Shown here: positions 5,411 to 61,633 of the stretch, one piece after another
Layout: every line of letters starts with the position of its first letter
Numbering within the stretch: position 1 is the stretch's first letter
Origin: an uncultured Planctomycetota bacterium
GTDB taxonomy: Bacteria; Planctomycetota; Phycisphaerae; Phycisphaerales; SM1A02
Assembly: GCA_963697235.1 (NCBI GenBank)
Contig: CAVONJ010000004.1
Coordinates: 48,781 to 112,780 of the forward strand
DNA: 64,000 nt
Direction: 5' to 3'
Notes under the pieces: generated by a model
What the model was told of the DNA's origin: nothing
Databases searched by the model: none
What the model saw: the letters and a program-made list of their open reading frames with translations, nothing else
Translations under genes and position numbers: made by a program

Positions 5411-6107
5411 TCACGCGTGCGCGTAGGTGTCCGACTCGACGAGCCCGTCGCGGAGTCGAACGATCCGCTGGCACCGCTCGGCGACATGGTCGTCGTGGGT
5501 CACCATGATGATCGTCATGCCGCCCTCGTGCAGTTGCGAAAAGAGTTCGAGGACGCCCTGACCGGTCTTCGAGTCGAGGTTTCCGGTCGGCTCGTCGGCC
5601 AGGATGATGGCCGGATCGTTCGCGAGGGATCGGGCGATCGCGACCCGCTGCTGCTGGCCGCCGGAGAGCTCCGAGGGTCGGTGCGTGAGGCGATCGCCGA
5701 GACCGACCTGCTCGAGGCGCGCGATCGCTCGATCGCGTCGCTCCTGTTTGGGGACGCCCTGGTAGAAGAGCGGCACCTCGACGTTCTCGCACGATGTTCA
5801 GCTCGCTGATCAGGTTGAACGCCTGGAAGATGAAGCCGATCTTCTGACCGCGGACCCGGCTCAGCTCGTCGTCGGCCATCTGCGCCACGTTCTTGCCGTC
5901 GAGCAGGTAGTCACCGCCGGTCGGACGATCGAGACATCCCAGGAGGTTCATCAGCGTGCTCTTGCCCGAGCCGGAGGCGCCCATGATGGCGACGTATTCG
6001 CCGCCTCGATGGTCAGATCGACGCCGCGCAGCGCGTGGACGAGCACCGACCCGTCGGGCTTGAAGTAGGTCCGGGTGATGCCGCGCAGCTCGACGACCGG
6101 CACGCGG
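5411..6107 (-). CDS. ABC transporter ATP-binding protein (MacB/LolD/FtsE-like), frameshifts near 5790 and 6000
   Basis: [46 protein letters not shown] (Walker A). The [15 protein letters not shown] signature, [11 protein letters not shown] (Walker B) and H-loop VTHD are present. No permease gene is adjacent. Confidence 0.75.
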
Positions 6108-6200
6108 GGGCTTGCTGGCGGATCGCGTCGGTCAGGCGGTGGTGCTCGTCGAGGTCATGGGTCAAGCCGAAGGGCCAATGGGATCACGGGCGGAAGACCG

Positions 6201-7824
6201 ATGCAGCCGTACCGCACGGCGATCGAGGCGATCGATGAAGGGTACGCTGGGCCAGTCATGACCATGCCTGATCGTCACGGCTTCCACTCCCTGGCCCGCG
6301 AGGGCAATGCGGTCGTCCTGCGCCGCCGCCTCATGAGCGACCAGCTCACGCCGGTCCTCGCCTACCGCCGTCTGGTCGAGCCCGACGAGCGGACGGCTCC
6401 GAGCTTCCTGTTGGAATCCGTCGAGACCGGAGGAACAGTCGGGCGCTTCTCGTACCTCGGCGCTCAGCCGGATCTGGAGCTTCTGGCCACGCGGCCCATC
6501 GGTCACGATCATCGACCATCGCACCGGCGAGCGTCTCGAGCGGACGGAGCTCGATCCCCTGTCCTTGCCCCGCTCGCTCACCGGTCGTGGCGGATCGCGG
6601 CGCCGCACGGCGGGGACGGCGCCGGTGCCGCGATTCTCCGGCGGATGGGTCGGCTACGCCGGGTACGACACGATGCGCTACCTCGAGCCGGAGAAGCTGC
6701 CGTTCTCCGCGGCGCCGCCCGACGATCGCGGCCTGCCCGATCTTCACTTCGGGCTCTACCGACAGGTCGTCGTCTTCGACCACGTCGAGAAGATGCTGTC
6801 CGTCTTCGCGCACGTCGTGCTCGACGAGCACGCGTCGGTCGACGCCGCGTACGACGCGGGCTGCGCCGAGCTGGACGAGTTCGGCACAGCGCCTCCAGCG
6901 CCGCAGCAGTCGCTGCCCGCGGGCGAGATCGACCTGGATCTCGCCGCGCTGCCCGCGGCGGCGCTCGAGAGCAACTTCGAGCGCGGCGGCGTTCGAGGCC
7001 GCGGTGCGGTCGCGCGAAGGAGTACATCGCTGCGGGCGACGCGTTCCAGATCGTGCTCAGCCAGCGCTTCCAGCGGATCACCGCGGCCGATCCGTTCGAC
7101 ATCTACCGGGCGCTGCGCATCGTCAATCCCAGCCCGTACATGATCTACCTGCAGGCGCGAGGCTCGATCCTCGTGGCGTCGAGCCCCGAGATCCTCTGCC
7201 GCACGCAGGGGCGGCAGGTCACGAACCGACCGCTGGCCGGCACGCGGCCTCGCGGGAGCACCGCCGCCGGCGGACGAGGCGCTGGCCGCAGAGCTGCTCG
7301 AAGATCCCAAGGAGCGGGCCGAGCACGTGATGCTCGTCGATCTGGGGCGCAACGACCTCGGCCGCGTGTGCGAGCGGGGATCGATTCGGCTGCCGCGCGT
7401 GCTCGACGTCGAGCGCTACAGCCACGTGATGCACCTCAGCTCGACGGTGATCGGCACGCCTCCGCGACGGTCTGGACAGCTGGGACGCGCTGCGGGCCAC
7501 GCTGCCGGTGGGCACGGTGAGCGGCGCGCCGAAGATCCGGGCGATGCAGATCATCGACGAGCTGGAGCCGACGCGGCGCGGGCCGTACGCCGGCGGCATC
7601 GGCGTGGTCGGCCTCGGCGGCGACATGGACATCGCCCTCGCCCTGCGGACGATGGTCATTCCCGACCGCGCTGCGGCGCGGCGGCCGGTGGACCGTCCAC
7701 CTGCAGGCCGGCGCCGGCATCGTCGCCGACTCCGTGCCCGCCGCGGAGTATCGAGGAGACGGTGAACAAGGCCGCGGCCCTCGGCCGAGCGATCGATCTG
7801 GGCGAGATGATCGGGGCGAGATGA
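6201..7824 (+). CDS. trpE: Anthranilate synthase component I, at least 5 frameshifts
   Basis: [11 protein letters not shown]...[11 protein letters not shown]...[12 protein letters not shown]...[18 protein letters not shown]...[10 protein letters not shown]...SSPEILCR...[10 protein letters not shown]...[16 protein letters not shown]...[12 protein letters not shown]...[32 protein letters not shown]...[11 protein letters not shown], distributed over three frames. Confidence 0.8.
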
Positions 7825-7860
7825 TTGCGGCCAGGCCGCCGGCACCCGCAAGGCGGCGGC

Positions 7861-8700: not shown

Positions 8701-8756
8701 AGCAGGTCCGTCCAGTGCATGGCTGATCGTACCGGCGGCGCGCCGCCGCCCGGCTA

Positions 8757-8925
8757 GTGCTAGTGGTGTGACTCAGAAGTTCGTTGACATATCGGCGCGA
8801 CATCGACGTTGCTGGCAAGGCGCCGTGACGACGGCATACTTCTGGTATTCGAAGGAGCGGCAACACAGCCAGCGGCGTCGAGGGCCGGCGAGAGGTAATG
8901 AACTTCTGAGTCAGACCACTAGGTC
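8757..8925. mobile_element. MITE-like element, copy 1 (~165 bp, 21-bp terminal inverted repeats)
   Basis: Termini tagtggtGtgactcagaagtt and aacttctgagtcagaCcactag are reverse complements with one mismatch. Outer CTAG at both ends. No ORF inside. The second copy is at 44813..44975. Confidence 0.55.
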
Positions 8926-10036: not shown

Positions 10037-13000
10037 ATGTCCGCAACACCGACTGAACCAATCCGTCCGAGTCGGCGGCGACGGCTGTTTCGGGCCTTCG
10101 TGATCGGTCTGGCCGTGGTGCTCTCCCTGGGGGCGATCGCGTCCTGGGTGTGCACTCGCTCCTGGTTCCTCGAGGCCCAGATCGAGCGCACCTTGGAGCG
10201 GCTGCTCGGCGGCGACGTCGAGATCGGTGAGGTCCGCTACGAAGGCGCGGGCGTGGTGATGCTGGACGAGGTGTCGGTTCGAAGCCGGGAGCACCAGGGA
10301 CCGGCGGCCGAGGTGCTCCTGATCGAACAGGCGAAGGTCGTCATCGACGTCGATCGCCTGATGGACTTCGACGTCCAGGTGCTGGGAGTCGAGCTGGATG
10401 GCGTTCGCCTGCGGCTCAGCGAGGATCAGCACAAGGCGGGCGACTTCAACTTCATGGCGCTGAAGCCCAACTGGCAGCGGCCCTATGACATCGAGCACCC
10501 CCTTCCGCCGTACGTCAGCATCACCAACGCGACGATCGAGGTGGGCCTGCACGACGGGGATCGCTATCACGTCGTCGGCACGCGAAGCGTTCGGGGAGAG
10601 ATGGCGCCGATGTCCGAGATGGACCGGGCGCTCGGGTTCTCGCTCACGGAGACCGACCCGAAGACGGGCGACTTCCTGGACTCCGGTCTGCGGATTCACG
10701 GCCGGTGGAATGTCATCACCAACGAGTACCAGAGCCAGATCGAAGGGCTGGAGCTCAACGCCGACACGTACGCGATGTGTCCGGCCATGGCTCGCTTCTG
10801 GTGGGACCGCATGCAGCTGGAGGGACGCGTCTCACACGTGAACATCGGCTGGAACACCGCCCGGTCGCTGCTGGTGGAATTCGATGTGGAGGACGTCGGC
10901 CTCACGCTGCCGATCGAGACGGAATCCTTCTGGACCCGCTACCACGAAGGACGGATCGACCCCAGCGCCGATCGACCCCGCATGTGGGTGACGAGCGGCC
11001 GGATCTCGCTCGAACGGGATCAGTTGGTGCTGCAGGGAATGGCCGGAGAGGTCCGCAGCAGCGCGTCCAGCGCCGAGGTCGTGGGTGTGCCCTACGAGGT
11101 GAACCTGCAGATCTTCAACCTTCCGCCCCTTGACTGGAGTGAGCGCGAACAGTGGCTGGACGGCGTCCTCGCCGAGACGCCCTTTCAAATGTCGGTCAAG
11201 CTGGCTGACTTCAAGCTGATGCGCGACGCCTCGGGGCAGGTCCCTCCGGTCGACCTTCCCATGCAGGTGGCCCAGTATCTCGAGCGCTTTCACATCAAGG
11301 AAGGGCAGCTGAGCACGGAGATCGAGCTCACGCGGAAACAGGGCGATGCCGACGGACCCGCCGGCATCCAGACCGAGGGGTTTGCCTACATCCAGAAGGC
11401 ATCGGGCGCCGTGGAGGCGTTCCCCTATCCGCTGGACGACGTCGAGTCGTACATCCAGTTCGACAACGAGCGGGTGACCATTCACTTCTTGACCGGATTG
11501 GGATCGGACGAGGCGCCGATCCGAGTGCACGGGGAGATCACGCCTCCCGGCGAGAATGCCGCCATCGCGCTGCAAATCACTGCGGTCCACATACCGCTGG
11601 ACGATCGCTTCCGCTCTGCCCTCGGGCCCGAGCAGCAGAACGTGTTCGACTCGCTGCTGCACCGGCCGACCGCGGAACGCCTCTCGGCGGCGGGCGGCTT
11701 GCCTGACCTCGCTTCGGTCGCGACCGCCACCGCCGAATACCGGGACCTCGTGGAGGAACTGGAACGTCAACGCTGGGATGAGGCGGACCCGACCGAGGCG
11801 CAGCAGCTGGAGTTGGAGCGCCGGACACGTCGCGTCCGGCAACTGCAGCGGGTGATCGAGGCCGGTCCGTTTCAGCTGGGAGGCTCGGTCAACCTCGAAC
11901 TGCAGGTGACTCGGGCGGCGGGTGAAGGGGAGAAGGCGAGCCTGGACGGACGGATCGACCTCCGACGCGTTGGGCTGCTCGCCGATCGATTCCCCTATCC
12001 AATCACGATCACCGGCGGCACCCTGGATCTCTCGCCGAAGGGCGTCGTGATCCGCGAGGGCGGAAGCCCGGAGGGCGCTTCGGTGACAACGCCCGGAGGC
12101 GGGACCGGCTGGTTGACCGGTCGCATCGACTTCGTCAAGGGCGAGGGCCACGTGGCGTGGGTTCCCGACCTTCGCCTGCAGATCCTCGAGGACGAGCTCA
12201 ACCCGCTGCTGTATGCCGCCATTCCGGATGTTCGCGAGAGCGACGCTGACCGATCTCGGCCGAGCGCGGCCGAGATCCTGCGCGATCTGGGCCTCCAGGG
12301 ATCGCTTGCGTACGACGGCTGGATCGGAAAGGCGGCGGACCGCACGGGCCTGTCGTTCGCGGTCGACATCGATCTCCACGACGGCTTCGCCGCGCCCGCG
12401 CCGACGTCGCGGAGGCGTTCACGACCACGGGTCTCCGCTGGCCGGAAGGATGGATCTTCGATGAAGTCTCCGGATCGTTGCGGGTGACCGAGGACGTCGT
12501 CGAGCTGCGCGAGCTGCGCGGCGTCAACGACTCCTGCCGACTCTTCGCCAACGGGCGCATCGATCTTCGCGGCGAGCCGCGGCAGACCGCGCTGGAAGTT
12601 CGCTTCGAGGACGTGTCCATCGACGAGTTCCTCCTGAACATGGTGCCCCCCGAGACCGCCAGCCGCCTGGATCCGCTGTGGCGGCGCTATCGGCCGGAGG
12701 GCTCCTTCTCCGCGGATCTGCGCTACCAGAGCGGTGGCGAGCCGTTGCGCTTGCGGTTCACGCCCGACTTCGTCCATGTCGATCTGGACGGTCAACCGTT
12801 GACGTTGAGCCGCCGCGAGGGCCATCTCGTGCTGGGCTCTGCGCAGGTGCGGCTGTCGGACCTGGTTCTCGAAGTGACCTCGGGCGATCATCGCGAGGGA
12901 GACATCACGCTGGACGGGGTGTACCGGGTGAGCCCTGGTCCGGGGGAAGACATGCTGGAGCTGCACGGCCGCTGGGACGGTGGTCAATTCCGCAGTCCGG

Positions 13001-23726: not shown

Positions 23727-23884
23727 CCAACGGTCGGCTCGAATCGGATATTTCTCCCACCGGGAGAGGTCGGCGAGCAAAGCGAGCCGGGTGAGGGCGG
23801 ACTGCGTCGATCGTTGGTTGCGCAACGGGTGTGTGTGTACGCGCCGCACGCACATGATGGACCAGCGCGCACCAGTTCGCGCTC

Positions 23885-26406: not shown

Positions 26407-26952
26407 GTTCTCTTTCCTCTCTTTGTCCGGTTTTCTCTATCTTGCCCCCGGATCCCGCCTGGACGACGAGGTCTGCGGAGATCGCCTTCGGGTGAAGATC
26501 TCAGCTCCAACCAATAGCCCCGATTCACGCGGCAGCCACCCCGACGTTCAGGAACGATCAACTCCACGCCTGAAGCGCGCCCGCACAGACGGAACAGTCA
26601 CCGAAGTCAGCCCTCGGGATTGGTTATGGAGCCAAGAGAGGAACCTCATTGGTGCCGGCCTCGATCCGATACCTGCACCGCACTCTTTCATCTTCCATTG
26701 GTGTCTCGTTGCTGTTGCGGTGGGAATGTGGAGGAATATGGGACCGCGGCCCGCTCGACGCCCGCGCCGGCTTCTGATCGCGATTGTCGCGTTGCGCGCT
26801 GACGGCGCCCTGGGCGCCGGCGAGCCGAGTGTGCCGAGGAGGGCGAAGCAGGCGGCTTGCCATGCCGTCGATGCAGCCCGACGAAGCCACGCGAAGTGAG
26901 CCAGCTCCGGATGCTATGAATTGAGTGAAGCTGCTCTAGAGCGTGCGCGCAG

Positions 26953-27060
26953 CCGACACGCGACGTCGTCCGCCCTCACCTGGTTCGTCCCCGCGAGCAG
27001 ACGCGGGGACGGGCCGTCCTCTCCCGGGGAGAGGAGTCTCCTTTTCACCTCTCCCGGGAG
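26953..27060. repeat. Structured extragenic repeat, family 1, copy B, with an extra third hairpin
   Basis: gacacgcgacgtcgtccgccctcacctggttcgtccccgcg-agcaga-cgcggggac...cctctccc-gggg-agagg...cctctcccgggaggagagg. Immediately downstream of hmgA. Confidence 0.6.
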
Positions 27061-27096
27061 GAGAGGATGATTGTCGATGCCGGCGCCCTCCGGCGA

Positions 27097-28384
27097 TCAG
27101 CCGCTCGTGTCCACGGCTGCCTTCGCGTGCTGCGGTTTGGCCGAAGCGATCGCTTCGCCGTTCGGTCCGTGGCTGCCGACGAGGTGCGGGAAGTGCTCGC
27201 CCTGCCAGCTCGCGGGGTAGTGGGGGTCGTCCATGCCCAAGGCGGCCGCGTCGGGAAGAGCGGCCGGAAGGTGTCGCACATCACGGCGAGTTCGTCGGTC
27301 CATGTCCTTGCCGAGCGACGCCTCGACGGTGCCGGGGTGCGGGCCGTGCGGAATGCCCTGCGGGTGCAGCGTGATCGAGCCGACCTCGATGCCCTTGCGG
27401 GCCTTGTAGTTGCCCTCGACGTAGTAGAGCACCTCGTCGGAGTCGAGGTTGGAGTGGTTGTACGGCACCGGGATCGCCTCGGGGTGGAAGTCGAGCATCG
27501 CGCGGGCAGAACGAGCAGATCACGAAGTTGTGCCCCTCGAACGTCTGGTGGATCGGCGGCGGCATGTGGAGCTTGCCGACGATCGGGCTGAAGTCGTCGA
27601 TGTTGAAGATGTACGGGTAGTAGCAGCCGTCCCAGCCGACGACGTCGAGCGGGTGGTAGTGGTAGATGTAGCTGTGCACGCTGTCGCGGGCCTTGATGCG
27701 CACCTCGAAGTCGCCCTGTCTCGTCGAAGGTGAGCGGCAGCTCCGGGCACGCGCAGGTCGCGCTCGCAGTACGGCGCAGTGCTCGAGGAACTGCGACGGT
27801 CTGTCTTGGAGACGTAGCGCGGCGGCGGGCACGATGTGCGAGCCGTTGGCGGTCTCGATGACGAGGAAGCGCGGGTTCGGGCTCGCCGGGCTTGGGCTCG
27901 TCGAACTCCATCCGGTAGATCGTGCCCTTGGGGATGACGATGTAGTCCTTGGGCCGGAACGCGCAGCGTGCCGAAGATCGTGTACACGGTGCCCGAGCCG
28001 AAGTGGATGAAGAGGCACTCGTCGCCCTGGCCGTTCTTGTAGTGGTAGTTCATCGGCTCGGCGGGAACGCAGATGCGCCATCTCGCAGTCGGCGTTGCCG
28101 AAGAGGACGACGCGGCCGGTGATCGGGTCGCCCTGCGGCTGGATCGGCATCGTCTTGAGGTGCCGCATGCGCATGACGTCGGTCTCGACGTACTCGGCCT
28201 TCGTCGAGTACAGCGGCTTCCAGCCGGTGACCTGGGTGGGCGGGTGGATGTGGTAGAGCGTCGAGGTCGGGCCGACGAAGCCCTCGGTGCCGAAGACCTC
28301 TTCGGAGTAGAGCGCCCCGTCGGGGCGGCGGAACTGGATGTGCCGCTTGGGGGGAAGCTGGCCGAGCTTGGTGTAGTACGGCAT
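27097..28384 (-). CDS. hmgA: Homogentisate 1,2-dioxygenase, at least 3 frameshifts
   Basis: RBS GGGAGGA then ATG. MPYYTKLGQLPPKRHIQFRRPDGALYSEEVFGTEGF...HYHPLDVVGWDGCYYPYIFNIDDFSPIVGKLHMPPPIHQTFEGHNFVICSFCPR...VLYYVEGNYKARKGIEVGSITLHPQGIPHGPHPG. Confidence 0.85.
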
Positions 28385-28910
28385 GACGAGAATCCTCCCG
28401 ACTTCAACGTGATTCACCGGCGCTGGCGCACCGGCATGGAGTGCGGTCGATTGTAGTGATCCCGGACCCGAAGAGCAGGTCCGCTCGCCCCGGGTGAGAA
28501 AATGGCCTCCCGGCTGCGCAGCGGCAGCGGTCAACGCGCCGCTCGATTGGCCGCCGACAGGCGTTCGCGATGTCGACGGGCGCAGCGCGGGCGACCGGCG
28601 CGGCCGCGGGGTGATGTGCCCTGGTGGCGCCACCCGACGAGCGCCGGCCAAGCCCATTGACCATTGGTTAGCGATGGCTGACACACTGAAGTGCACGAGA
28701 CTCGCCGTCGCTTCCGCGCCTCTGCTGGCAAGAGCGTCAAGGTGGGAGAGATCGACAAGCTCAGCGATCAAAACGAGCGTTCGAAAGTGCGCCGTTCTTC
28801 AAAACCTCGAGAGTTCTCTCGTTGGGGTTCACCAATCGCGCGATACGATGTCAGCCGTCGCGAGCTGGCGACCGGCTCTCGCGTGAGGGAGACGGGGGGG
28901 AAGGAGCAGC

Positions 28911-38766: not shown

Positions 38767-38818
38767 CGGGCAGCTCGTCGAGCATGCCAGATCACCGTCA
38801 GCCGACGATCGCCGCGCT

Positions 38819-38995
38819 GGCCCGCATTTCTCACCACCATCTGCTGCGGCTGTGTAGACCGCCCGCTGGCGGCGTCGCTTTCGGCACATCGAGGCTCCGA
38901 AGGCATGACAAGCCGTCTCCGCCTCGACGGCCTCATCTCCTTGCCAACGAACGTTCTACGCACCCTCGCGACGATGTTGGTGAGAAATGCGGGCT
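38819..38995. repeat. 17-bp perfect inverted repeats bracketing 143 bp in the SBP-permease spacer
   Basis: ggcccgcatttctcacc (38819-38835) and ggtgagaaatgcgggc (38979-38994). The right arm is followed by ctagtgg, which resembles the MITE terminus. Confidence 0.5.
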
Positions 38996-39045
38996 AGTGG
39001 CGCGACGCTCGCCCACGGCGGGCGGCACGGAAAGGGCGGTGCGCA

Positions 39046-41726: not shown

Positions 41727-42907
41727 ATGGCCCAGATCCAATCGCCGCTGCTCTCCTCCGCCACGATCGACGCGGCCCGCACTCGTCTTCGGCGGATCGC
41801 CGACAGCCTGCCCGAACACCGGATCGATGCGATCCTGATTGGCACGGAGAAGGACATTCTCTACCTGACCGGGTTCATCGGGCACGACAGCCTGCTGCTG
41901 GTGATGCCGGGAACCTCGGTGATCATCACCGACGCCCGCTACGACGAGTTTCTCGATCCCTGGCGCAAAGCTGAAGTGCTCGAGGTGATGATTGGAACGC
42001 GGCACCGCCTCGAGCATGCCGTCAAGGACCTGTGCCGGTCCAGGACGATCCGTCATTTGGGCTTCCAGGCCGATTCGCTCACCGTGAGCCGCCAGCAGCG
42101 ACTCGCAGCGGCCCTCGGCGATTCCGCGCTGCACGCCACCGAGGGAATCGTGGCCGGATTGCGTCGCGCAAGGACGAGCACGAGATCGGTCGGATCGAGC
42201 AGGCGATCCGCTGCCAGGAAGAGGCGATGGCTGCGGCGCTGCCATACCTGCGAACGGGCATGCGTGAGCTCGAGTTCGCCGCCCGTCTCGAGTACGAGAT
42301 GAAGATGCGCGGAGCGCTGAAGTCGAGCTTCGATCCGATCATCGGGGCGGGAAGCAACAGCTCGATCATCCATCACCAGACCGGCTCCACGCCGATTGGG
42401 CCCGGACATCTGCTCGTCGACTGGGGCGCGATGACTCCCGACGGCTACAACTCCGATCTCACCCGCACGTTCGGCCTTGGGCCGATGACCGACAAGTTCG
42501 CGAGAGATCTACACGATGGTGCTGGAGGCGCAGCTCGCGGCCATCGAGGCGGCTCGACCCGGACGGACGTGTGCCGAGATCGACGCGGTCGCCCGCCGCC
42601 GATCATCCGCAGCGCCGGATACGGCGACTACTTCACGCACGGACTCGGTCATGGTCTGGGTCTGGACGTGCACGAGAGCCCGTACTTCAACGAGCTGCAG
42701 GACGACGTGGTGCTCGAACCGGGCATGGTCATGACGGTGGAGCCAGGCATCTACCTTCCAGGCATCGGGGGGGTGCGGATCGAGGATGACGTGCTGATTA
42801 CCGAGTCCGGCTCGCGGGTGCTGAGCCACTGGCCCAAGATCACCGGACTCTGCGGTGATCGAGCCGGGGAACGTGCCCGCGTCCGTGGGCTGAGGACGAT
42901 TCGATGA
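41727..42907 (+). CDS. pepP: Xaa-Pro aminopeptidase / M24B metallopeptidase, at least 3 frameshifts
   Basis: DILYLTGF...[16 protein letters not shown]...YNSDLTRTF...[16 protein letters not shown]...[27 protein letters not shown]. Stop overlaps the accB start (ATGA). Confidence 0.75.
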
Positions 42908-43423
42908 TCGACATTCGCAAGCTCAAGGAGCTGGTTCGACTGATGGTCGCGAACGATCTGACGGAGCTCGATCTCCGCGACAGCGAGGAGCAGGTGACGC
43001 TGCGCCGGCCCGGGCCAGCTCCGACCGTTGCTCCAGCGACTCCAGCCGCACCGGTTGCATCAGTCGCACCAGGCGGATCAGGTGGATCCGGTGCCGCACA
43101 CGACGTGTGGCCGCCGGTGCTCGCGAACGAGACGGCGGGCGCGCACCCGCCGCGACCGCGTCGGGGGCCCGAAGGATACGGCGCTCATCGAGATCGAGAG
43201 CCCGATGGTCGGCACCTTCTACGCCAAGCCGAATCCGGACGCCGCGCCGTTCGTCAGCGTGGGAACCCGGGTGACCCCGGACACGGTCGTCTGCCTGATC
43301 GAGGCGATGAAGATCTTCAACGAGATCAAGGCCGAGTGCGCGGGCACGATCGAGCGGGTCCTGGTCGACAGCGGCGATCCGGTCGAGTTCGGCCAGCCGC
43401 TCTTCCAAGTCCGGAGTGGCTGA
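42904..43423 (+). CDS. accB: Biotin carboxyl carrier protein of acetyl-CoA carboxylase, frameshifted
   Basis: N-terminus [25 protein letters not shown]-terminus [13 protein letters not shown]...[39 protein letters not shown] (biotinyl-lysine AMK motif). Confidence 0.8.
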
Positions 43424-43440
43424 ACGCCGCGGGCCTTCCC

Positions 43441-44817
43441 ATGTTCTCACGCATCCTGATCGCCAACCGGGGCGAGATCGCGCTGCGGATCATCCGTGCC
43501 GCGCGCGAGCTGGGCATCGAGACGGTGTGCGTCTACTCCGAGGCCGACCGCAGACGGCCCGTGGCTGGAGCACGCCGACCAGACGGTCTGCATCGGACCC
43601 GGTCCCGCCTCCGAGTCGTACCTGCGGATCGACCGCATCATCTCCGCCGCGGAGATCAGCGAACGTCGACGCGATCCACCCCGGCTACGGGTTCCTCGCG
43701 GAGAACGCCCACTTCGCCGAGGTCTGCCGCGACTGCCACATCGAGTTCATCGGCCCCAGCCCCGAGGCCATGGGGCGTGCTCGGCGACAAGATCAGCTGC
43801 CGCAAGATGGCCAAGCGCGCGAAGACGCCGATCTTCCCCGGCAGTCGCAGACGCGCATCGAGGACGAGGATGAAGCGGCCCAGGTCGCCGACGAGATCGG
43901 CTACCCGGTGATCGTGAAGGCGTCGGCCGGCGGCGGCGGACGGGGCATGCGCATCGCCCACAACGAGATGGCCCTGCGGGCGAGCGATCAGCGCCGCCCG
44001 TCAGGAGGCCGAGGCGGCCTTCGGCAACGGCGCGGTCTACATCGAGAAGTTCCTCGAGCGGCGCGCGGCACGTCGAGGTCCAGGTCCTCGGGCGACAAGC
44101 ACGGCAACGCGGTGCACCTGTTCGACCGCGACTGCTCGTCGCAGCGGCGCCACCAGAAGCTCATCGAGGAGGCGCCGGCGCCGGGCGTCGACCGACGCAA
44201 GCGTCGACGCGGTGGCCAAGTCGGCGGCCGAGCTCATCCGCCAGGCCGACGTACTCCGGGCGCGGCGACGGTCGAGTTCCTGATGGACGACGAGCAGAAC
44301 TTCTACATGCTCGAGGTCAACACGCGCGTGCAGGTCGAGCACCCGGTCACGGAGATGATCACCGGCATCGACATCGTCAAGGAGATGATCCGCGTCGCGG
44401 CGGGGGAGCCGCTGAGCGTCAAGCAGGAGCGACGTCAAGGTGAACGGCCACGCGATCGAGTGCCGGATCAACGCCGAGGATCCCGACCGCGGCTTCCTGC
44501 CCCAGCCCGGGCTCGATCGAGTGAGTTCGACGTGCCCGGCGGCCCCGGGGTGCGCGTCGACACGCACGTGCGGCCGGGCTACCGGATCCCGCCGAACTAC
44601 GACTCGATGATCGGCAAGCTCATCGTCCACGGCGCGAACCGCGAGGAGGCGATCGCCCGCATGCAGGCGGCGCTGGCGGAGTTCGACATCGGACCGATCA
44701 AGACGACGATTCCGCTCCACCGGCGCATGATGGAACATCGCGAGTTCGTGCGACGCCGAGTTCGACATCCACTACGTCGAGCGAATGCTCAGCGGGCAGG
44801 CGGCGATCGTCGGCTAG
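43441..44817 (+). CDS. accC: Biotin carboxylase, at least 8 frameshifts
   Basis: [29 protein letters not shown]...[16 protein letters not shown]...[18 protein letters not shown]...[26 protein letters not shown]...[18 protein letters not shown]. Stop TAG lies inside the left terminus of MITE copy 2. Confidence 0.85.
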
Positions 44818-44975
44818 TGCGGTGTCGGGTCAGAAGTTCGTTGAATATCGGCGAGACAAGTGTCGTGCTGGAAGGCGCAGCACGACGGCATACCTGGCGT
44901 CCGATGAGCGGCGACAAAGCCACGCGCAGCCGCAGCAGATGCGAATGACTTCTGATCAGAACGCCTAGCGGCCAG
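44813..44975. mobile_element. MITE-like element, copy 2
   Basis: ggctagtgcggtgtcgggtcagaagttcgttgaatatcggcg...gaatgacttctgatcagaacgcctagcgg. Shares the CTAG-tcagaagttcgttga terminus and internal blocks (atatcggcg, gacggcatac) with copy 1; ~70% identical overall. Sits between the convergent accC and cvpA-like stops. Confidence 0.55.
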
Positions 44976-46548
44976 TCACCATCAGATTGCAGGTTCCCAG
45001 CGTCTTGTCGCCGACCTTGAAGCCGACGAGGGTGGCCCCCTCGGTCACGCGGAAGTAGAGCATCAGCTCCTGGGTTCCCGCCGTGGGCAGAATCGGCAGC
45101 TGGTCGAGCGTGCGAACGTACGTGCCGGGTGCAAGCACGATGTCGGTGTCCGTGCCCTTCTTCAGGATGTATCCCAAGGGTGAATACGTGTTGCCCTGGG
45201 AGTCGACCATTGCCATGACCGCGTCCTCGGCAAGCTGACCGCGCAGGGATGATCCGAAGAGATCGGTGACCTTTCCACGGCTGACGTCCAGCGTGACGAT
45301 GCGCGTACCGGGCGGCTCGTAGATGCCCTTGATCTGAAGGGCTCGCGAGATCAGGCCGGGGCTGCTTCCGAATGTGCCGGTGCCCTCAACGAGGTAATTC
45401 TCCTGCTCCTTCATCGTCCCCGGCAGCGAGTTGGTGCTGATCTTGATGGGCCGGATCGAGTTCGAGATGCGCAGATCGCTCTCCGGAATCGGACGGGCGG
45501 ACAGCTCCACCGTCTCGCTGCCGCCGGTCGAGGTGCTCAGTCCCGCGCCGCTGAGCAGTCCGCGGCGGGAACGGCTGCGGTGCCGGCAGACGATACCGGT
45601 TGTTCTTCACCTGAATGTACTTGGGGACGAAGTTCGCCGGGATCTTGAAGAGGATGGTGGCGGCGGCATTCTCCCGCCCGGGGACCGAGGTCACGTAGTG
45701 GGCGATGTTGTCGAAGCGGTAGAGCGTCCCGTCCTGTGCCCACATGTCGGGGTGAACGACGGGGGCGGCCGCCCATCCGCGGGCGGCGCCGATCAGTCGG
45801 ATCTGCGAGTTCGCGATCGTGAGCTGCTCGCCGAAGTCGAGGGCCGCGCCGTCGAATTGCATGTCGACCGCCGCGCGATCGCCGCCCGCGTTGTAGAGCA
45901 GCCCGGTCACCTTCGCGGCCGAAGGCACCATCACGATCTGCCCCTTGCCCTCCTGGTACGAGTCCCGGACCAGCGACGCCTGCCAGTTGAGCCGGGGAGC
46001 GACACGGCGCATCGGTTCGGGCGACCACATGGAGGTCACGCTCAGCCAGCTGTAGAACTCGGCGGTCCAGTAGGAGACGGGGATCCACATCGGCTGGTTG
46101 CTGAAGCGCACGACGCTCCCGTCGCGTCCGGAGCGGCCGTAGCCGCGATACCCCATGAGTTCGCTCTTGCTCTGGAAGAACCCGCATCCGATGACGATGA
46201 TGCCGACGGTCAGGATCCCCGCGCCGGCGCCCAATGGAAAGCCGAAGGTGAGGTTGGCCCAGTGGGGCAGGTCGACGTTCGCCGGGGCGAGCCGGTCCGT
46301 GATCAGTCGCAGGAGGAAGAGGGTGATCGCGAAGACGCCGAGCAGCGTCACGCCCCAGGCGTAGTTGTCGAACCAGCCGCCGCGGAGCAGGAATCCCGTG
46401 ACCAGCGGCTCCCACACGCCGAAGGCTACGGCGCCGGCGACCACGACCGCGAGCAGGTGAAGCAGCGCGAGAACACCCCCTGATTCGCCCACCAGTAGGC
46501 GATGATCAGGACGAACAGAGTCAGCACGATGTTGAAGATGTAGATCAT
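44965..46548 (-). CDS. CvpA-like (colicin V production family) 4-TM membrane domain fused to a ~380-aa C-terminal extracytoplasmic domain, frameshifted
   Basis: MIYIFNIVLTLFVLIIAYWW...SALLHLLAVVVAGAVAFGVWEPL...LLGVFAITLFLLRLI...GAGILTVGIIVIGCGFF, then a non-membrane domain of unknown family (...IKGIYEPPGTRIVTLDVSRGKVTDLFG...LMVTGR*). Confidence 0.45.
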
Positions 46549-54260: not shown

Positions 54261-55765
<1,505 letters not shown>

Positions 55766-55784
<19 letters not shown>

Positions 55785-56008
55785 GGGTGCCCCGAACGCG
55801 AGAGGTCTCTCGAGGACGAACCACCGGCGAGACTCCCCGGCTCCCTCACCCGGCTCGCTGTGCGAGCCTGACCTCTCCCCCGGGAGAGGGCAGGGTGAGG
55901 GTGCCCCGAACGCGAGAGGTCTCTTGAGACAACACACCGGCGAACTCCCCGGCTCCCTCACCCGGCTCGCTGTGCGAGCCGACCTCTCCCGGGGGGAGAG
56001 GTGACGAG
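55766..56008. repeat. Tandem structured repeat: two ~115-bp units (~90% identical) plus a 18-bp partial third
   Basis: Each unit begins with the hairpin cctctccc-cc-gggagagg, followed by gcagggtgagggtgcc...ggctccctcacccggctcgctgtgcgagcc. Shares the hairpin motif and the ccctcacc block with repeat family 1 at 23885 and 26953. Confidence 0.65.
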
Positions 56009-56015
56009 GAAGCTC

Positions 56016-57753
56016 CTACTCCTCGCGTCCGCGCCGCACGACAGTTACCGCGTCGACGGCGACATCCTCCACCACCTCGAGCACGCCATCCCCCCAGATC
56101 ACGACCACCTCGTCGACCGCCGTCGCTTCCCCAATCCCGACGTGGACGCACGGATCGTTGCTCGCCAGATAGCTCGACGATGCATGCACGACACGCGCGT
56201 CACGCGCCGCCCCAGCCACCACGACCTCGACCTTCGCCCCGAGCGCCGGCGCTCCGTGCTCGTCCAGCACCCGCAGCGCCACCCAGTGCCCGCGCCGCGA
56301 CATCGACGTTCATGAGCAATCGCGCCGGCGCACCGCGCTCGATGATCACCACGTCGATCCCGCCGTCGCCGTCGACGTCACCGAACGCGGCCGCGCGGCT
56401 GCTCCCGATCAACGCCTCCGCCGTCCCGCCCGGCGGCTCCAGTGGTTCGAACGAACCGTCGGGCCGCCCTTGGAAGAGCAGGTTCGGCTCCGCGTAGGGA
56501 TCCGGACCGTAATTCATCGCCTGGCGCATCACGCGCCCGTTCGCCTGGTAGAGATCGAGACAGCCGTCGTTGTCGAAGTCCACCAGTCCCAGGCCGAACC
56601 GCGTGTACCGCCGGCTCAGCGCGCCAGCCCCTTCGCCGCGGTCACGTTGCTGAAGACCCGCCCCGCTTCATTGCGGAAGAAGCTGTCGGATTCGTTGCGC
56701 AGGTTGCACACCATCAGGTCCTGGTCGCCATCGCCGTCGAGATCTTCGGCGGCGACGCCCATACCCGCCGCTGCGCGGCCGTCGTGGTCGTACGCACAGC
56801 CGTAGCGCAGGCCCGCCTCGACGAAGCGGCCCTCTCCCTCGTTCACCCAGAGGTGATCGGCCATCCCGTCGTTCGCGACGAAGACGTCGACGCGCTCGTC
56901 GCCCGTGAAGTCCTTGCACACGACGCCCAGCCCCGTCCCCCGCGTGCCGATGAGCCCGGCCTCGCGCCGTCACGTCGGCGAACGTGCCGTCGCCGAGATT
57001 CTCGAAGAGTCGGTCCTGGGCCGGAGCCATGAAGTTGCGTGGGCTGCAGTAGTCTTCGCCGCCCATCGTGTTGAAGCACTCCAGCCGCATCTCCGGCGTC
57101 CACACGAGATAGCTGCACACCCAGAGATCGAGATCGCCGTCGCCGTCGGCGTCGAAGAACGCGGCGCCGGTGCTCCAGCCGTCCGCACCGACCCCCGCCT
57201 CCGCGGTCACGTCCCGAAAGCGCCCTTGACCGTCGTTGGCCAGCAACACATCCGGACCGTAGTTCGTCACGTAGAGATCGACGTCGCCGTCGCCATCGTA
57301 ATCTCCGCACGCCACGCCCATGCCGTAGCCGCGATCGTCAGCGCCGCTGCCGGTCGTCGCATCCTCGAAGAATCCGTCACCGCGATTGACGAAGAGTCGA
57401 TTCGCCGGCCGCGCCTCGGGAGGACCGATCAAGTCGCCATCCTGCACGCAGTAGAGGTCGAGATCACCGTCACCATCGAGATCGACGAGCGCCGCGCCGC
57501 CGCCCATGATCTCGGGCATGAAGTAGCGGTCCGCCGGACCCGGGTCGTGCACGAAGTCGATCCCCCGCGCTGCCGCCTGATCCTCCAGCCACGGCGGCGC
57601 GGTGCCACCACCATCGGCGCCCGCCGCGCCACCCTGACCGTCCGTCGCCGGTCGACAGCCGAACGCCGCGGCCGCCACCAACACCATCAGCCCCGCTCCT
57701 CGTGGCACGTCCCACGACCATCGCCGCCCTGCTCCAGCGCACCGCACGCTCAT
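56016..57753 (-). CDS. CRTAC1-family protein (FG-GAP/VCBS repeats plus ASPIC/UnbV C-terminal domain), lipoprotein, frameshifted
   Basis: Lipobox MVLVAAAAFGC. Multiple DxDGDGDxDLY FG-GAP repeats. C-terminal UnbV-like region (LRVLDEHGAPALGAKVEVVVAGAARDARVVHASSSYLASNDPCVHVGIGEATAVDEVVVIWGDG). Confidence 0.7.
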
Positions 57754-59230: not shown

Positions 59231-61633
59231 ATGAATCAGAAGGCAGCCTCGGTGGCGATTCTGGTGGTCCTCGGCGTCATCGGCGCATCGGTCGGCTGGT
59301 GGTGGGGGAGCGGCCGCACCGCGAAGGATGCGGGCACGGGGCGACTCGTCGCTTCCGGCCGGAGGTGCGGTGCCGCTCGCGAAGGTGCCGACGACGCCCG
59401 GAGCGTCAACCGCCGCAGCGCCGTCGGCCGGCACGCGCAGCGATGCCATCGGGCACATTCCTCGCAGCCGGCGGCAGCCAGTGGATCCCCCAGCGCCCGG
59501 AGTTCCTCGCCATCGCCCGCCAGCTCCGCGAGGGATGGAATCCGTACCTCGGCGCCGCCCCGCTCGCGGCCATCCGCAACGAGATCCGGTCGACCGCGGC
59601 GCAGCGGCCCTTGAAGGAGCGACTGGAGCTGCAGCTCGCACTCGCGTTCAAGCTGCTGGAGCAAGGCGATCCGGACGGCGCCCTCGAGGCGATCTCGCAC
59701 GCGTTCGCGCTCGCCGAGGCCATCCCCGGGGCGCTCGATCAGCACGCCTATCTCTACCGGGCGAGGGCGCTCGATCAATCTGCGCCGCGCCGAGCTGGCC
59801 AACTGCATCGCCCGCCACAACAAGGACTGCTGCATCTTCCCCCTGGCCGGAGGCGGCGTGCACCAGGAGCGGGCGCCCGCGGAGCTGGCGCGGCAGGACT
59901 ATGAGAAGTACTTGCAGCTCTATCCCCACGACCTGGCGGTGCGCTGGCTGCTCAACCTCGCGTGCATGGCTCTGAACCAGTACCCGGATGGCGTGCCCCC
60001 GGAGCAGCTGATCCCGCCGTCGGCCTTCGCGTCGGAGCACGAGATCGCGCGGTTCGTGGACGTGGCCCCGAAGCTCGGGCTCGACACCTTCGATCAGTGC
60101 GGGGGAGCGATCGTCGAGGATTTCACCGGCGACGGTCTGCTCGACGTCGTGAGCTCGACGTTCGATCCCGAGGGGCCGCTGCACTTCTTCGTGAACCAGG
60201 GCGACGGTACGTTCCAGGATCGATCGGCCGCCTCGCGACTCGACGATCAGCTCGGCGGCCTCAACTGCATCGCGGCGGACTACGACGACGACGGCGACGC
60301 CGACATCCTCGTGCTGCGCGGCGCCTGGCTCTTCGACGATGGGCGGATCCGCAACTCGCTGCTCCGCAACGACGACAACGGAGTCTTCACCGACGTGACC
60401 CGCGAGGCGGGGCTGGCCGAGCCCGCGGCCCCGACGCAGGCGGCGGTCTGGGGCGACTTCGACCTCGACGGCGATCTCGACCTCTATATCGGCAACGAGG
60501 CGCGGCCCGGCGATCCCGCGGGCGGCCACTATCCCTCGCAGCTCTTCCGCAACCGGGGCGACGGCACGTTCTCGGACGTCGCCGCAGCGGCGGGCGTCAC
60601 GAACGATCAGTTCGGCAAGGGCGTGACGGCGGGGGACTACGACAACGACGGCGACCTCGATCTCTACGTCTCGAACCATGGGCCCGAACCGGCTCTACCG
60701 CAACGAGGGCAACGGCACCTTCACCGACGTGGCCGAGTCCGCGGGCGTCCTCGAGCCGACGCGGCAGCTTCGCGACGTGGTTCTTCGACTACGACAACGA
60801 CGGCTGGCTCGACCTCTTCGTCGCCGCGTACGACGCGCCGATCGCCGACGGTGGCCGCGGATCACCTGGGCCAGCCGTACACCGCGCGGCACCCCGCGCC
60901 TCTACCGCAACCGCGGCGACGGCACGTTCGAGGACGTGACCGAGCGGCGTCGGTCTCGATCACGCGTACCTGCCGATGGGCGCCAACTTCGGCGACATCG
61001 ACAACGACGGCTGGCTCGACATCTACCTCGCCACCGGCGACCCGAACTACGAGTCGCTGATGCCCAACGTCATGCTGCGCAACGACGCGGCGGAAGGCAT
61101 TCCAGGACGTGACCACCGCCGCCGGCCTCGGCCATCTGCAGAAGGGCCACGGCGTCGCGTTCGCGGACATCGACAACGACGGCGACCAGGACTGTACCAC
61201 CAGCTGGGCGGCTTCTATCCCGGCGACAAGTTCAAGAACGCGCTGTTCCTGAATCCCGGACAGGGGAGCGGTGGCAGCGCGAGCGACGGCAAGAGCGCAC
61301 GCGAGAGCCGAAACCACTTCGTGACCATCACGCTGCACGGCACACGAACCAACGCTGCCGGCTACGGCGCGCGGATCACGGTCACGGTGACGACCCCGGA
61401 CGGCCCGCGGCGCGATCCACCGCGCGGTGGGTTCGGTCAGCAGCTTCGGCGGCTCCCCGTCCCGCCAGGAAATCGGCCTGGGCGACGCGATCGCTATCGA
61501 CGAGATCCGCATCGACTGGCCGGTCTCCGGCACGAGCCAGCGGCTCGAGGACGTCCCCCTCGACACGTTCATCGAGGTGACGGAGGGCGAGGCGGGGTTC
61601 CGCCAAGTCCCGAGATCGGCAATCGATCTGTAG
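59231..61633 (+). CDS. CRTAC1-family protein, second paralog (N-terminal helical region, FG-GAP repeats, ASPIC/UnbV), at least 6 frameshifts
   Basis: N-terminus MNQKAASVAILVVLGVIGASVGWWW. FG-GAP repeats (GAIVEDFTGDGLLDVV; CIAADYDDDGDADIL; WGDFDLDGDLDLYIGNEA; TAGDYDNDGDLDLYVSNHG). C-terminal UnbV (GYGARITVTVT...GSVSSFGGSPS...LGDAIAIDEIRIDWPVSG). Confidence 0.7.

What the first reader, a model, noticed from the sequence alone, without database searches (positions are those of the whole stretch)
8757..8925. Two-copy ~165-bp MITE-like element with 21-bp terminal inverted repeats and CTAG ends
Copy 1 has near-perfect TIRs (tagtggtGtgactcagaagtt and its complement with one mismatch). Copy 2 (44813-44975) shares the terminal CTAG-gg.g...tcagaagttcgttga block and internal islands (atatcggcg.gaca, gacggcatac) at ~70% identity. 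Neither copy contains an ORF. Copy 2 is wedged exactly between the convergent stop codons of accC and the cvpA-like gene, with both TAG stops inside the element termini. Copy 1 sits in the 5' region of the zinc-ribbon membrane gene. This is the signature of a non-autonomous transposon, and no cognate transposase is in the window.
Basis: seen in the sequence. Interest (0 to 1): 0.6.

Follow-up and report, generated by a model that had tools for sequence, protein, structure and literature searches.

The report
IS630-type miniature transposon (MITE) copies
The two look-alike 160-bp stretches are real copies of a small non-coding "hitch-hiker" transposon, moved by an IS630/Tc1-mariner-type transposase encoded elsewhere. 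The kind is well known and common, though this particular family is spread across several bacterial phyla.

Summary
Copy 1 (8760-8922) and copy 2 (44814-44968) are homologous (74.6% over 169 nt, E 9e-20). Both are intergenic and bounded by CTAG, and copy 1 folds into one long hairpin (z -10). A third, decayed fragment lies at about 26818-26939.

The MITE reading is supported, and the transposase family can now be named. A two-end pattern search found 48 further ~165-bp elements in metagenomes. All carry the same 27-bp terminal inverted repeat (CTAGTGTC..TCAGAAGTTCGTTG) and have unrelated flanks. The same repeat bounds complete 1.16-1.45 kb IS630-family insertion sequences (HTH + DDE_3 transposase) in Acidovorax, Pseudomonas and Caballeronia plasmids. 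A related repeat bounds one in a planctomycete relative of the source organism.

The end tetramers and one empty site fit TA duplication within CTAG, as for IS630 and IS870. The TAG stop codons inside the termini follow from where CTAG occurs in GC-rich genomes. No transposase lies in the window.

One point remains unexplained. Most subfamilies share an asymmetric conserved core and a fold-back kept by compensatory changes, with no Rfam match. Verdict: an ordinary new member of a known kind.

The parts
8760..8922 (+). Copy 1: the intact 163-bp MITE, written CTAG to CTAG. By the IS630 convention the element proper is 8763-8919, flanked by TA at 8761-8762 and 8920-8921.
   Evidence: Sequence read. 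The family HMM built from metagenome members scores E 1.8e-30. It folds into a single hairpin of -97.3 kcal/mol, z -10.4.
8760..8786 (+). Left terminal inverted repeat of copy 1: CTAGTGGTGTGACTCAGAAGTTCGTTG.
   Evidence: Coordinates. Compared with IS630-family ends.
8896..8922 (-). Right terminal inverted repeat of copy 1. Its reverse complement reads CTAGTGGTCTGACTCAGAAGTTCATTA.
   Evidence: 24 of 26 positions are complementary to the left repeat.
8812..8872 (+). Conserved asymmetric core of the family in copy 1: CTGG-CAAGGCG ... small hairpin ... CAACACAG-CCAG.
   Evidence: Columns G58 C59 A61-G65 and C103 A104 C106 G110 are invariant across 18 diverse members.
8754..8759 (+). An extra CTAGTG half-site directly abutting the left end of copy 1. 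Its origin is unclear; it may be a remnant or a 6-nt duplication.
44814..44968 (+). Copy 2: a decayed 155-bp MITE in the same orientation as copy 1. The right repeat has lost a base and the core is mutated.
   Evidence: Family HMM E 6.4e-10. The fold is weak, z -2.0.
44815..44817 (+). TAG stop codon of accC, formed by the left CTAG of copy 2.
44965..44967 (-). TAG stop codon (CTA on the + strand) of the convergent cvpA-like gene, formed by the right CTAG of copy 2.
   Evidence: ORF 44965-45510, minus strand.
26818..26939 (+). Copy 3: a decayed fragment resembling copy 2. The left repeat is no longer recognisable and the right end finishes in CTAG (26936-26939). It is intergenic.
   Evidence: Smith-Waterman score 34 against a background of 11.9 +/- 2.2, next best 22. 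nhmmer with copy 2 gives E 0.017. ORF context.

Best explanation
The elements are copies of a miniature inverted-repeat transposable element derived from the IS630/Tc1-mariner family, in the IS870-like subgroup.

Shown:
- Each copy is a ~160-bp non-coding fold-back whose outer 27 bp are the binding sites of an IS630-family HTH-DDE transposase.
- Complete insertion sequences with the same ends exist elsewhere.
- The ends follow the pattern N-TA-G...C-TA-N.

Inferred:
- A transposase supplied in trans from a full-length element in the genome binds both repeats and cuts the element out.
- It then pastes the element into a TA dinucleotide, preferably the TA of CTAG, and that TA is duplicated.

Because the element starts with G and ends with C, insertion into C-TA-G rebuilds CTAG at both ends. 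A host gene whose TAG stop codon was the target therefore keeps its stop. In GC-rich genomes most CTAGs are stop codons, so copies end up wedged against gene ends.

Copy 1 is structurally intact. Copy 2 and the fragment at 26.8 kb are old, decayed insertions.
For: 1. Homology of the two copies is far beyond chance.

2. The family is real and dispersed. The pattern TCAGAAGTTCRTT-N95-125-AAYGAACTTCTGA found 48 metagenome loci; my own estimate of the chance expectation is well below one match. All 48 carry CTAGTGTC(CTGAG/GCGTC)TCAGAAGTTCGTTG at both ends, with unrelated flanks.

3. The same repeat bounds complete IS630-family elements:
- Acidovorax pACP3.2, L051 1859-3027.
- Pseudomonas MPC6 plasmid, L052 3001-4173.
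- Caballeronia, L059 1080-2527.
The first two are annotated 'IS630 family transposase' and match Pfam DDE_3 plus HTH_32/29/28/23. The Caballeronia transposase is 81-84% identical to them by tblastn.

4. A planctomycete relative has a 1,163-bp element with a 360-aa transposase. The relative shares 70% epimerase identity with the window organism, and a long YhdP/DUF748-type gene sits next to the epimerase. The transposase is 57% identical to the proteobacterial ones, and its repeat is CTAGTGTCCYGACTT....

5. In these elements the right repeat encodes the transposase C-terminus, and the terminal TAG is its stop codon. This is as reported for IS870 (title cited in PMC13630536).

6. End tetramers vary mostly at the outermost base. 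On the left: TTAG x3, ATAG, GTAG. On the right: CTAC x3, CTAA. TTAG on the left is paired with CTAG on the right. This fits TA duplication and not a 4-bp duplication.

7. Empty site: an uninterrupted paralogue of the IS5 gene hit by the Acidovorax element has one CTGG where the filled site has CTAG-IS-CTAG.

8. IS630 prefers the TA in CTAG (Tenzen and Ohtsubo 1991, title cited in PMC2170065). The family transposes by cut-and-paste with TA duplication (PMC2170065).

9. Element orientation relative to the adjacent gene is random, 11 to 12.

10. The orthologous spacer in the relative lacks the element.
Against: - The source genome outside the window could not be searched, so its copy number and the presence of a matching transposase are unknown.
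- Within the window there is one intact copy and two decayed ones, so current activity is not shown.
- No empty site was obtained for a MITE copy itself, only for a full-length relative.
- The planctomycete full-length element matches the window's repeat well only in the outer ~15 nt.
- A plain cut-and-paste model does not explain the strongly conserved asymmetric core. It also does not explain the compensatory changes in the inner stems.
Confidence: 0.88

Rival explanations
1. The element is primarily a structured RNA or single-stranded-DNA module, such as a small RNA, a 3'-UTR stabiliser/terminator or a single-strand promoter. On this reading the conserved core is the functional payload and the IS630 ends are only its vehicle.
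For: - Two islands outside the repeats are invariant across subfamilies whose stems differ completely: GC-AGGCG, and CA-C plus two further G positions.
- 27 of 51 pairs show compensatory changes, against 13.1 +/- 1.7 in shuffles; 95% of cells are paired, against 31-47% when partners are slid.
- The strand carrying the core as written folds better than its complement in 44 of 50 elements.
- From my tally of the non-standard pair counts, G-U outnumbers A-C by about 45 to 8.
- The core recurs in Burkholderiaceae and Desulfosarcina elements with divergent ends.
Against: - There is no Rfam match, even at E <= 1.
- There is no orientation bias relative to the gene whose stop codon is used, 11 to 12. 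A cis-acting mRNA role is therefore unsupported.
- No promoter or terminator consensus was found.
- The G-U excess is dominated by two inherited positions, and many members are close relatives.
- Every instance seen, including those in Burkholderiaceae and Desulfosarcina, is TA- or CTAG-flanked and palindromic, so the core never occurs outside a MITE-like carrier.
- Several subfamilies with the same repeats lack the core altogether: L003/L031, L005/L042, L006/L034 and L027.
Confidence: 0.07
2. It is an IS5-family MITE that duplicates the whole 4-bp CTAG target, like MITEPsy1 of Pseudomonas syringae.
For: - CTAG sits at both ends of most copies.
- IS5-derived MITEPsy1 duplicates CTAG or YTAA (PMC3189936).
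Against: - The repeats match IS630-family elements, not IS5 ends. MITEPsy1 and ISPsy2 begin GGAAGGTC....
- When the left tetramer is TTAG the right one is CTAG, and CTAG on the left pairs with CTAC or CTAA on the right. The four bases are therefore not duplicated as a unit.
Confidence: 0.02
3. It is a REP/REPIN-type repeat mobilised by a RAYT (Y1 HUH) transposase.
For: - It is a long intergenic hairpin and multicopy.
- REP superfamilies are reported in many phyla, and the paper describing them mentions Planctomycetes (PMC3733652).
Against: - REPs are 20-40-bp palindromes tagged by GTAG or CGTC at one end (PMC3733652 abstract).
- This element is about 165 bp, has 27-bp terminal repeats identical to IS630 ends, has TA duplications, and carries no GTAG or CGTC tag.
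Confidence: 0.01
4. The similarity is due to chance or to a local segmental duplication.
For: Only two clear copies lie in the window, and they are only about 75% identical.
Against: - Pairwise E is 9e-20, and the score is about 26 standard deviations above random windows.
- Similarity stops exactly at the CTAG ends.
- 48 independent members were found elsewhere.
Confidence: 0

Closest known systems
RUP (repeat unit of pneumococcus), the MITE of IS630-Spn1
   Same: A bacterial non-coding MITE of ~100-160 bp. Its terminal repeats match those of an IS630-family insertion sequence, and it inserts at TA (PMC2229807).
   Different: The host phylum, sequence, length (107 against ~165 bp) and target context differ. 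RUP is not reported to prefer CTAG, to carry a conserved asymmetric core, or to be spread across phyla.
IS870 of Agrobacterium vitis, and IS630 of Shigella (autonomous IS630-family elements)
   Same: TA duplication with a CTAG preference (titles cited). The transposase stop codon is supplied by the CTAG target. An A. vitis IS630-family element ends ...CGAACTTCAGATTCGGGTGACTAG, which I count as 20 of 27 matches to the MITE repeat. The transposases are 57-60% identical across the clade.
   Different: Those are 1.1-1.4 kb and encode the transposase. The window elements have only the ends. I could not read the IS870 sequence itself, so equating the A. vitis hit with IS870 is inference.
Correia/NEMIS elements of Neisseria
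   Same: About 100-155 bp with 26-bp terminal repeats, a TA target, an intergenic location and a hairpin-forming transcript (PMC2229807).
   Different: No cognate transposase is known for Correia elements. They carry IHF sites and promoters, which were not found here.

Membership tests
MITE (generic) | Small (<~500 bp) and without coding capacity | tested here: met
   155-163 bp. Only spurious ORFs of <=48 aa lie wholly inside.
MITE (generic) | Terminal inverted repeats | tested here: met
   24 of 26 positions match in copy 1. The repeats are conserved in 48 further members.
MITE (generic) | Multiple dispersed copies at unrelated loci | tested here: met
   Three copies in the window and 48 metagenome loci with unrelated flanks. 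The source genome as a whole was not searchable.
MITE (generic) | Terminal repeats shared with an autonomous transposase-encoding element | tested here: met
   L051, L052 and L059 match at 23-25 of 27 positions.
IS630/Tc1-mariner-derived element | Cognate enzyme is an HTH + DDE_3 (IS630-family) transposase | tested here: met
   Pfam DDE_3 at 1e-19, plus HTH_32/29/28/23. The records annotate these genes as IS630 family.
IS630/Tc1-mariner-derived element | Insertion at TA with 2-bp TA duplication | tested here: met
   The end-tetramer pattern is NTAG...CTAN. No empty site was obtained for a MITE copy itself.
IS630/Tc1-mariner-derived element | CTAG target preference (IS630/IS870 subgroup) | tested here: met
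   CTAG at 31 of 48 left ends and 35 of 48 right ends, and at all ends of the window copies.
IS630/Tc1-mariner-derived element | Compatible transposase present in the same genome | not testable with these tools
   None in the 64-kb window. The source contig is not retrievable. A relative's genome carries one.
IS630/Tc1-mariner-derived element | Demonstrated mobilisation | not testable with these tools
   Requires an experiment or strain-level presence/absence data.
IS5-type MITE | 4-bp (CTAG/YTAR) duplication and IS5-like ends | tested here: not met
   Left and right tetramers differ at the outer base. The ends do not resemble IS5 or MITEPsy1 ends.
REP/REPIN | 20-40-bp palindromic units tagged by GTAG or CGTC, with an associated RAYT gene | tested here: not met
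   No such tag or unit is present. Definition taken from PMC3733652.
Any Rfam RNA family | Covariance-model match | tested here: not met
   No hit in the window at gathering score. No hit in representative members at E <= 1. In relatives only sub-threshold, generic hairpin matches overlap the element.

The most novel reading that the evidence does not exclude
The asymmetric core is CUGG-CAAGGCG...CAACGCAG-CCAG, with tandem G-A mismatches and a small AU-rich hairpin. The core and the compensatory maintenance of the whole fold-back could reflect a functional single-stranded structure in RNA or DNA. This MITE superfamily would then carry that structure across at least three phyla (Planctomycetota, Pseudomonadota, Thermodesulfobacteriota). 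Its role might be to boost the element's own transposition or to act on host transcripts.
Probability: 0.15. Interest if true: 0.6.

Novelty: new member of a known kind. Interest (0 to 1): 0.3.

Why it matters
For annotation, these stretches should be masked as IS630-type MITEs and not called as genes or small RNAs. The TAG stops of accC and its neighbour are shared with the element ends.

More broadly, the family shows how a CTAG-targeting transposon can colonise GC-rich genomes almost harmlessly. CTAG survives mainly at stop codons, and the element's G...C tips rebuild the stop on insertion.

The wide spread of one terminal repeat is probably helped by the repeat also encoding the transposase C-terminus. 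The conserved core, which has no known function, is the only part that could repay further work.

Tried and rejected
- **Genome scan.** The single genome-contig scan used TCAGAAGTTCGTTGA-N0-1-ATATC and found two loci. L001 looks like chance. L002 is a solo left repeat right after a gene's TAG stop, with no partner. The source genome is not among the representatives.
- **Source contig.** Looking up the window's epimerase (P0001) returned 'not on record', so copies could not be counted in the source genome.
- **Rfam.** The window at gathering score, then members and relatives at E <= 1, gave nothing relevant.
- **Literature by sequence string.** Only unrelated primer matches turned up.
- **Promoter and terminator consensus** around copy 1: none.
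- **Special selection for stop codons.** 29 of 48 elements use a terminal CTAG as the stop of an ORF of >=60 codons. So do 53 of 99 non-element CTAGs in the same loci and 8 of 10 in the window. I read this as target availability, not selection.
- **Orientation bias** relative to host genes, which a cis-RNA role would predict: 11 to 12.
- **Core independent of the IS630 ends.** The Burkholderiaceae and Desulfosarcina instances first looked free-standing. They proved to be TA/CTAG-flanked palindromic relatives with divergent or partly lost ends.
- **Other rivals.** IS5-type, REP/RAYT and sigma-54 promoter readings were considered and dropped. The sigma-54 reading failed on GG/GC spacing, checked by inspection only.
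- **IS870 paper.** The original (PMC204638) is not held.

Full report
**Observation**

I read both stretches. Copy 1 runs from CTAG at 8760 to CTAG at 8922. Copy 2 runs from 44814 to 44968.

The two copies align end to end at 74.6% identity over 169 nt (blastn E 9e-20). The local alignment score is 64, against 11.3 +/- 2.0 (maximum 20) for random windows of the same sequence. Similarity stops at the CTAG ends.

CTAG is strongly depleted in the window: 16 occurrences against about 51 expected. Five of those 16 sit at or next to the ends of the two copies.

Copy 1 folds into one long hairpin (-97.3 kcal/mol, z -10.4). Copy 2 has decayed (z -2.0). A scan of the window with both copies revealed a third, degraded fragment resembling copy 2 at about 26818-26939. 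It also ends in CTAG (score 34 against a background of 11.9 +/- 2.2).

**Context in the window**

All three sites are intergenic.

- Copy 1 lies between the stop of a minus-strand epimerase gene (8973) and the start of the minus-strand zinc-ribbon gene (8649).
- Copy 2 lies between accC and a convergent cvpA-like gene. The accC frame ends ...[10 protein letters not shown] at 44815-44817. The convergent ORF stops at 44965-44967. Both stops are inside the terminal CTAGs.

Protein hits place the organism in Planctomycetota, close to Phycisphaerales. Its nearest relatives are only about 70% identical.

**A real, widespread family**

A first scan of species-representative genomes gave only two loci. 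A scan of metagenome contigs required both repeat cores at the right spacing (TCAGAAGTTCRTT-N95-125-AAYGAACTTCTGA). My own estimate of the chance expectation for that pattern is well below one match. It returned 48 loci.

Every one is a ~165-bp element. Each is bounded by CTAGTGTC(CTGAG or GCGTC)TCAGAAGTTCGTTG and its complement, and the sequence beyond the CTAGs is unrelated between loci. An HMM built mostly from these members finds copy 2 of the window at E 6e-10.

**The autonomous partner**

A blastn search of one member against plasmids hit the 27-bp repeat in several Burkholderiales and Pseudomonas records. In three of them the repeat bounds a complete element:

- Acidovorax carolinensis pACP3.2: 1,169 bp.
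- Pseudomonas sp. MPC6 plasmid: 1,173 bp.
- Caballeronia sp. NK8: 1,448 bp.

The first two have a single gene annotated 'IS630 family transposase'. Those proteins match Pfam DDE_3 and the HTH_23/28/29/32 domains typical of the family. The Caballeronia record is unannotated; its transposase was identified by tblastn at 81-84% identity. The repeats agree with the metagenome consensus at 23-25 of 27 positions, and the match runs on into GTTGAA(C/T), as in copy 2.

In these elements the right repeat is coding. It encodes the last residues of the transposase (...LRTSNSRH*), and the terminal TAG is the stop codon.

Looking up a 70%-identical epimerase from a relative returned a 4.29-Mb planctomycete contig. 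By luck, the retrieved stretch carries a 1,163-bp element of the same clade. Its transposase is 360 aa and 57% identical to the proteobacterial ones. Its ends read CTAGTGTCCYGACTT..., and its stop codon again lies in the terminal CTAG.

The clade is common. tblastn finds it in 735 plasmid records, from Streptomyces to Sinorhizobium and Deinococcus. An Agrobacterium vitis member ends ...CGAACTTCAGATTCGGGTGACTAG.

Neither the window nor any metagenome locus encodes such a transposase.

**Target and duplication**

IS630-family elements move by cut-and-paste into TA, which is duplicated (PMC2170065). IS630 prefers the TA of CTAG (Tenzen and Ohtsubo 1991, title cited). IS870 needs CTAG to complete its stop codon (Fournier et al. 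1993, title cited in PMC13630536).

Among the 48 elements, CTAG is present at 31 left ends and 35 right ends. Variants that keep the TA change almost only the outermost base. On the left these are TTAG x3, ATAG and GTAG. On the right they are CTAC x3 and CTAA. A left TTAG pairs with a right CTAG. This is the pattern N-TA-[G...C]-TA-N expected from a 2-bp duplication, not from a 4-bp one.

The Acidovorax element interrupts an IS5 transposase gene. An intact paralogue on the same plasmid has a single CTGG where the interrupted copy has CTAG-element-CTAG. In L023 two elements abut and share one CTAG.

**Why the stop codons sit in the ends**

In 29 of 48 elements a terminal CTAG is the stop of an adjacent ORF of at least 60 codons. 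The same holds for 53 of 99 CTAGs that are not part of an element in those loci, and for 8 of 10 in the window.

The association therefore reflects where CTAG survives in GC-rich genomes. Because the element begins with G and ends with C, insertion into C-TA-G restores TAG on both sides, and the host gene is untouched. Element orientation relative to that gene is random, 11 to 12.

**What remains unexplained**

Most subfamilies, including the window copies, share an asymmetric core, CTGG-CAAGGCG...small AT-rich hairpin...CAACGCAG-CCAG. In many members it includes tandem G-A mismatches. The stems between the core and the repeats differ completely between subfamilies yet remain complementary.

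- On 18 diverse members, 95% of cells are paired. 27 of 51 pairs show changes on both sides, against 13.1 +/- 1.7 in shuffles. Only 31-47% of cells are paired when partners are slid.
- The strand written here folds better than its complement in 44 of 50 elements.
- The core also occurs in Burkholderiaceae and Desulfosarcina repeats whose ends have diverged. These are still TA- or CTAG-flanked fold-backs.
- Rfam has no match.

Several points argue against a separate function. Several subfamilies with the same ends lack the core. There is no orientation bias. Many members are close relatives, so the counts are not independent. I treat a separate function of the core as a minority possibility.

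**Comparison and verdict**

The closest described analogue is RUP of Streptococcus pneumoniae, a 107-bp MITE with IS630-Spn1 ends that inserts at TA (PMC2229807). The closest autonomous relatives are IS870 and IS630.

REP/REPIN repeats require a GTAG or CGTC tag (PMC3733652), and IS5-type MITEs duplicate 4 bp (PMC3189936). Both fail their defining features here.

The finding is a correct call of an ordinary kind of element. It is a new family member in a little-studied phylum, now assigned to its transposase family. The source genome could not be scanned, so copy number and current activity there remain open.

Noticed in passing
window 6075-7851, 42904-43423, 43416-44817, 44965-46492, 27097-28771: Several conserved genes are split across reading frames: trpE, accB, accC, the cvpA-like gene and a homogentisate-dioxygenase-like gene. 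The gene names are my reading of the translations, and no family search was run on them. Either the assembly has many indel errors or the genome carries many pseudogenes. Exact-protein look-ups therefore fail.
   Followed up: partly
window 38816-38998: A second, unrelated MITE-like element of ~183 bp. Its terminal repeats are GCCCGCATTTCTCACCA(C/A)CATC, flanked by CTGG on the left and CTAG on the right. As DNA it folds as a hairpin (z -5.6). It lies between ORFs that look like an ABC substrate-binding gene and a permease gene. It may be another TA/CTAG-targeting family.
   Followed up: partly
window 55763-56017, 23753-23823, 26947-27066: A GC-rich REP-like repeat family (CCCTCACCCGGCTCGC..., CCTCTCCCGGGAGGAGAGG hairpins). 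It includes two tandem ~113-bp units, and one copy directly abuts the decayed MITE fragment.
   Followed up: no
window, whole: CTAG is about 3-fold under-represented (16 against ~51 expected). 8 of the 10 CTAGs that are not element ends terminate long ORFs. Long ORFs mostly end in TGA.
   Followed up: yes
window 8754-8759; L008 right flank of its element; L023 about 600-625: Oddities at element ends. An extra CTAGTG lies before copy 1. A mini-palindrome, CTAGTGTCTCGGGACACTAT, lies next to the L008 element and may be a footprint or a deletion derivative. In L023 two elements abut and share a single CTAG.
   Followed up: partly
L002 3436-3468 (Gammaproteobacteria MAG): A solitary left repeat, CTAGTGTCCTGAATCAGAAGTTCGTTGAATATC, sits immediately after the TAG stop of a 325-aa ORF that looks like a glycosyltransferase. 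No right repeat lies in the remaining 1.2 kb. Downstream are two small ORFs that may form a toxin-antitoxin pair.
   Followed up: partly
L054, L056, L058, L061-L064 (Burkholderiaceae chromids): A multicopy repeat (7-8 places per replicon) starts with TAGGGTCTGTT..., contains the same core and ends in GGCAACCCCTAG. It is then followed by a further conserved ~100-nt segment (CAGGGGAACGCCCGAAATCGGCCGCAT...). It looks like a composite element.
   Followed up: partly
L065 about 10950-11300: In the planctomycete relative, the spacer after the epimerase gene holds 3-4 tandem ~104-bp repeats instead of the MITE. Each repeat contains a CGCCTTGCT...AGCAAGGCG hairpin.
   Followed up: no
L059 1080-2527 (Caballeronia sp. 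NK8 plasmid): The IS630-family element here is 1,448 bp. It has about 260 bp of extra sequence between the end of the transposase match and the right repeat, so this copy carries a passenger segment.
   Followed up: no
window 56300-57500 (-) and 60100-61200 (+): Dense internal repeats rich in GACGACGGCGAC-type motifs. They look like repeated Asp/Gly-rich protein modules in two divergently oriented large genes, not non-coding repeats.
   Followed up: no
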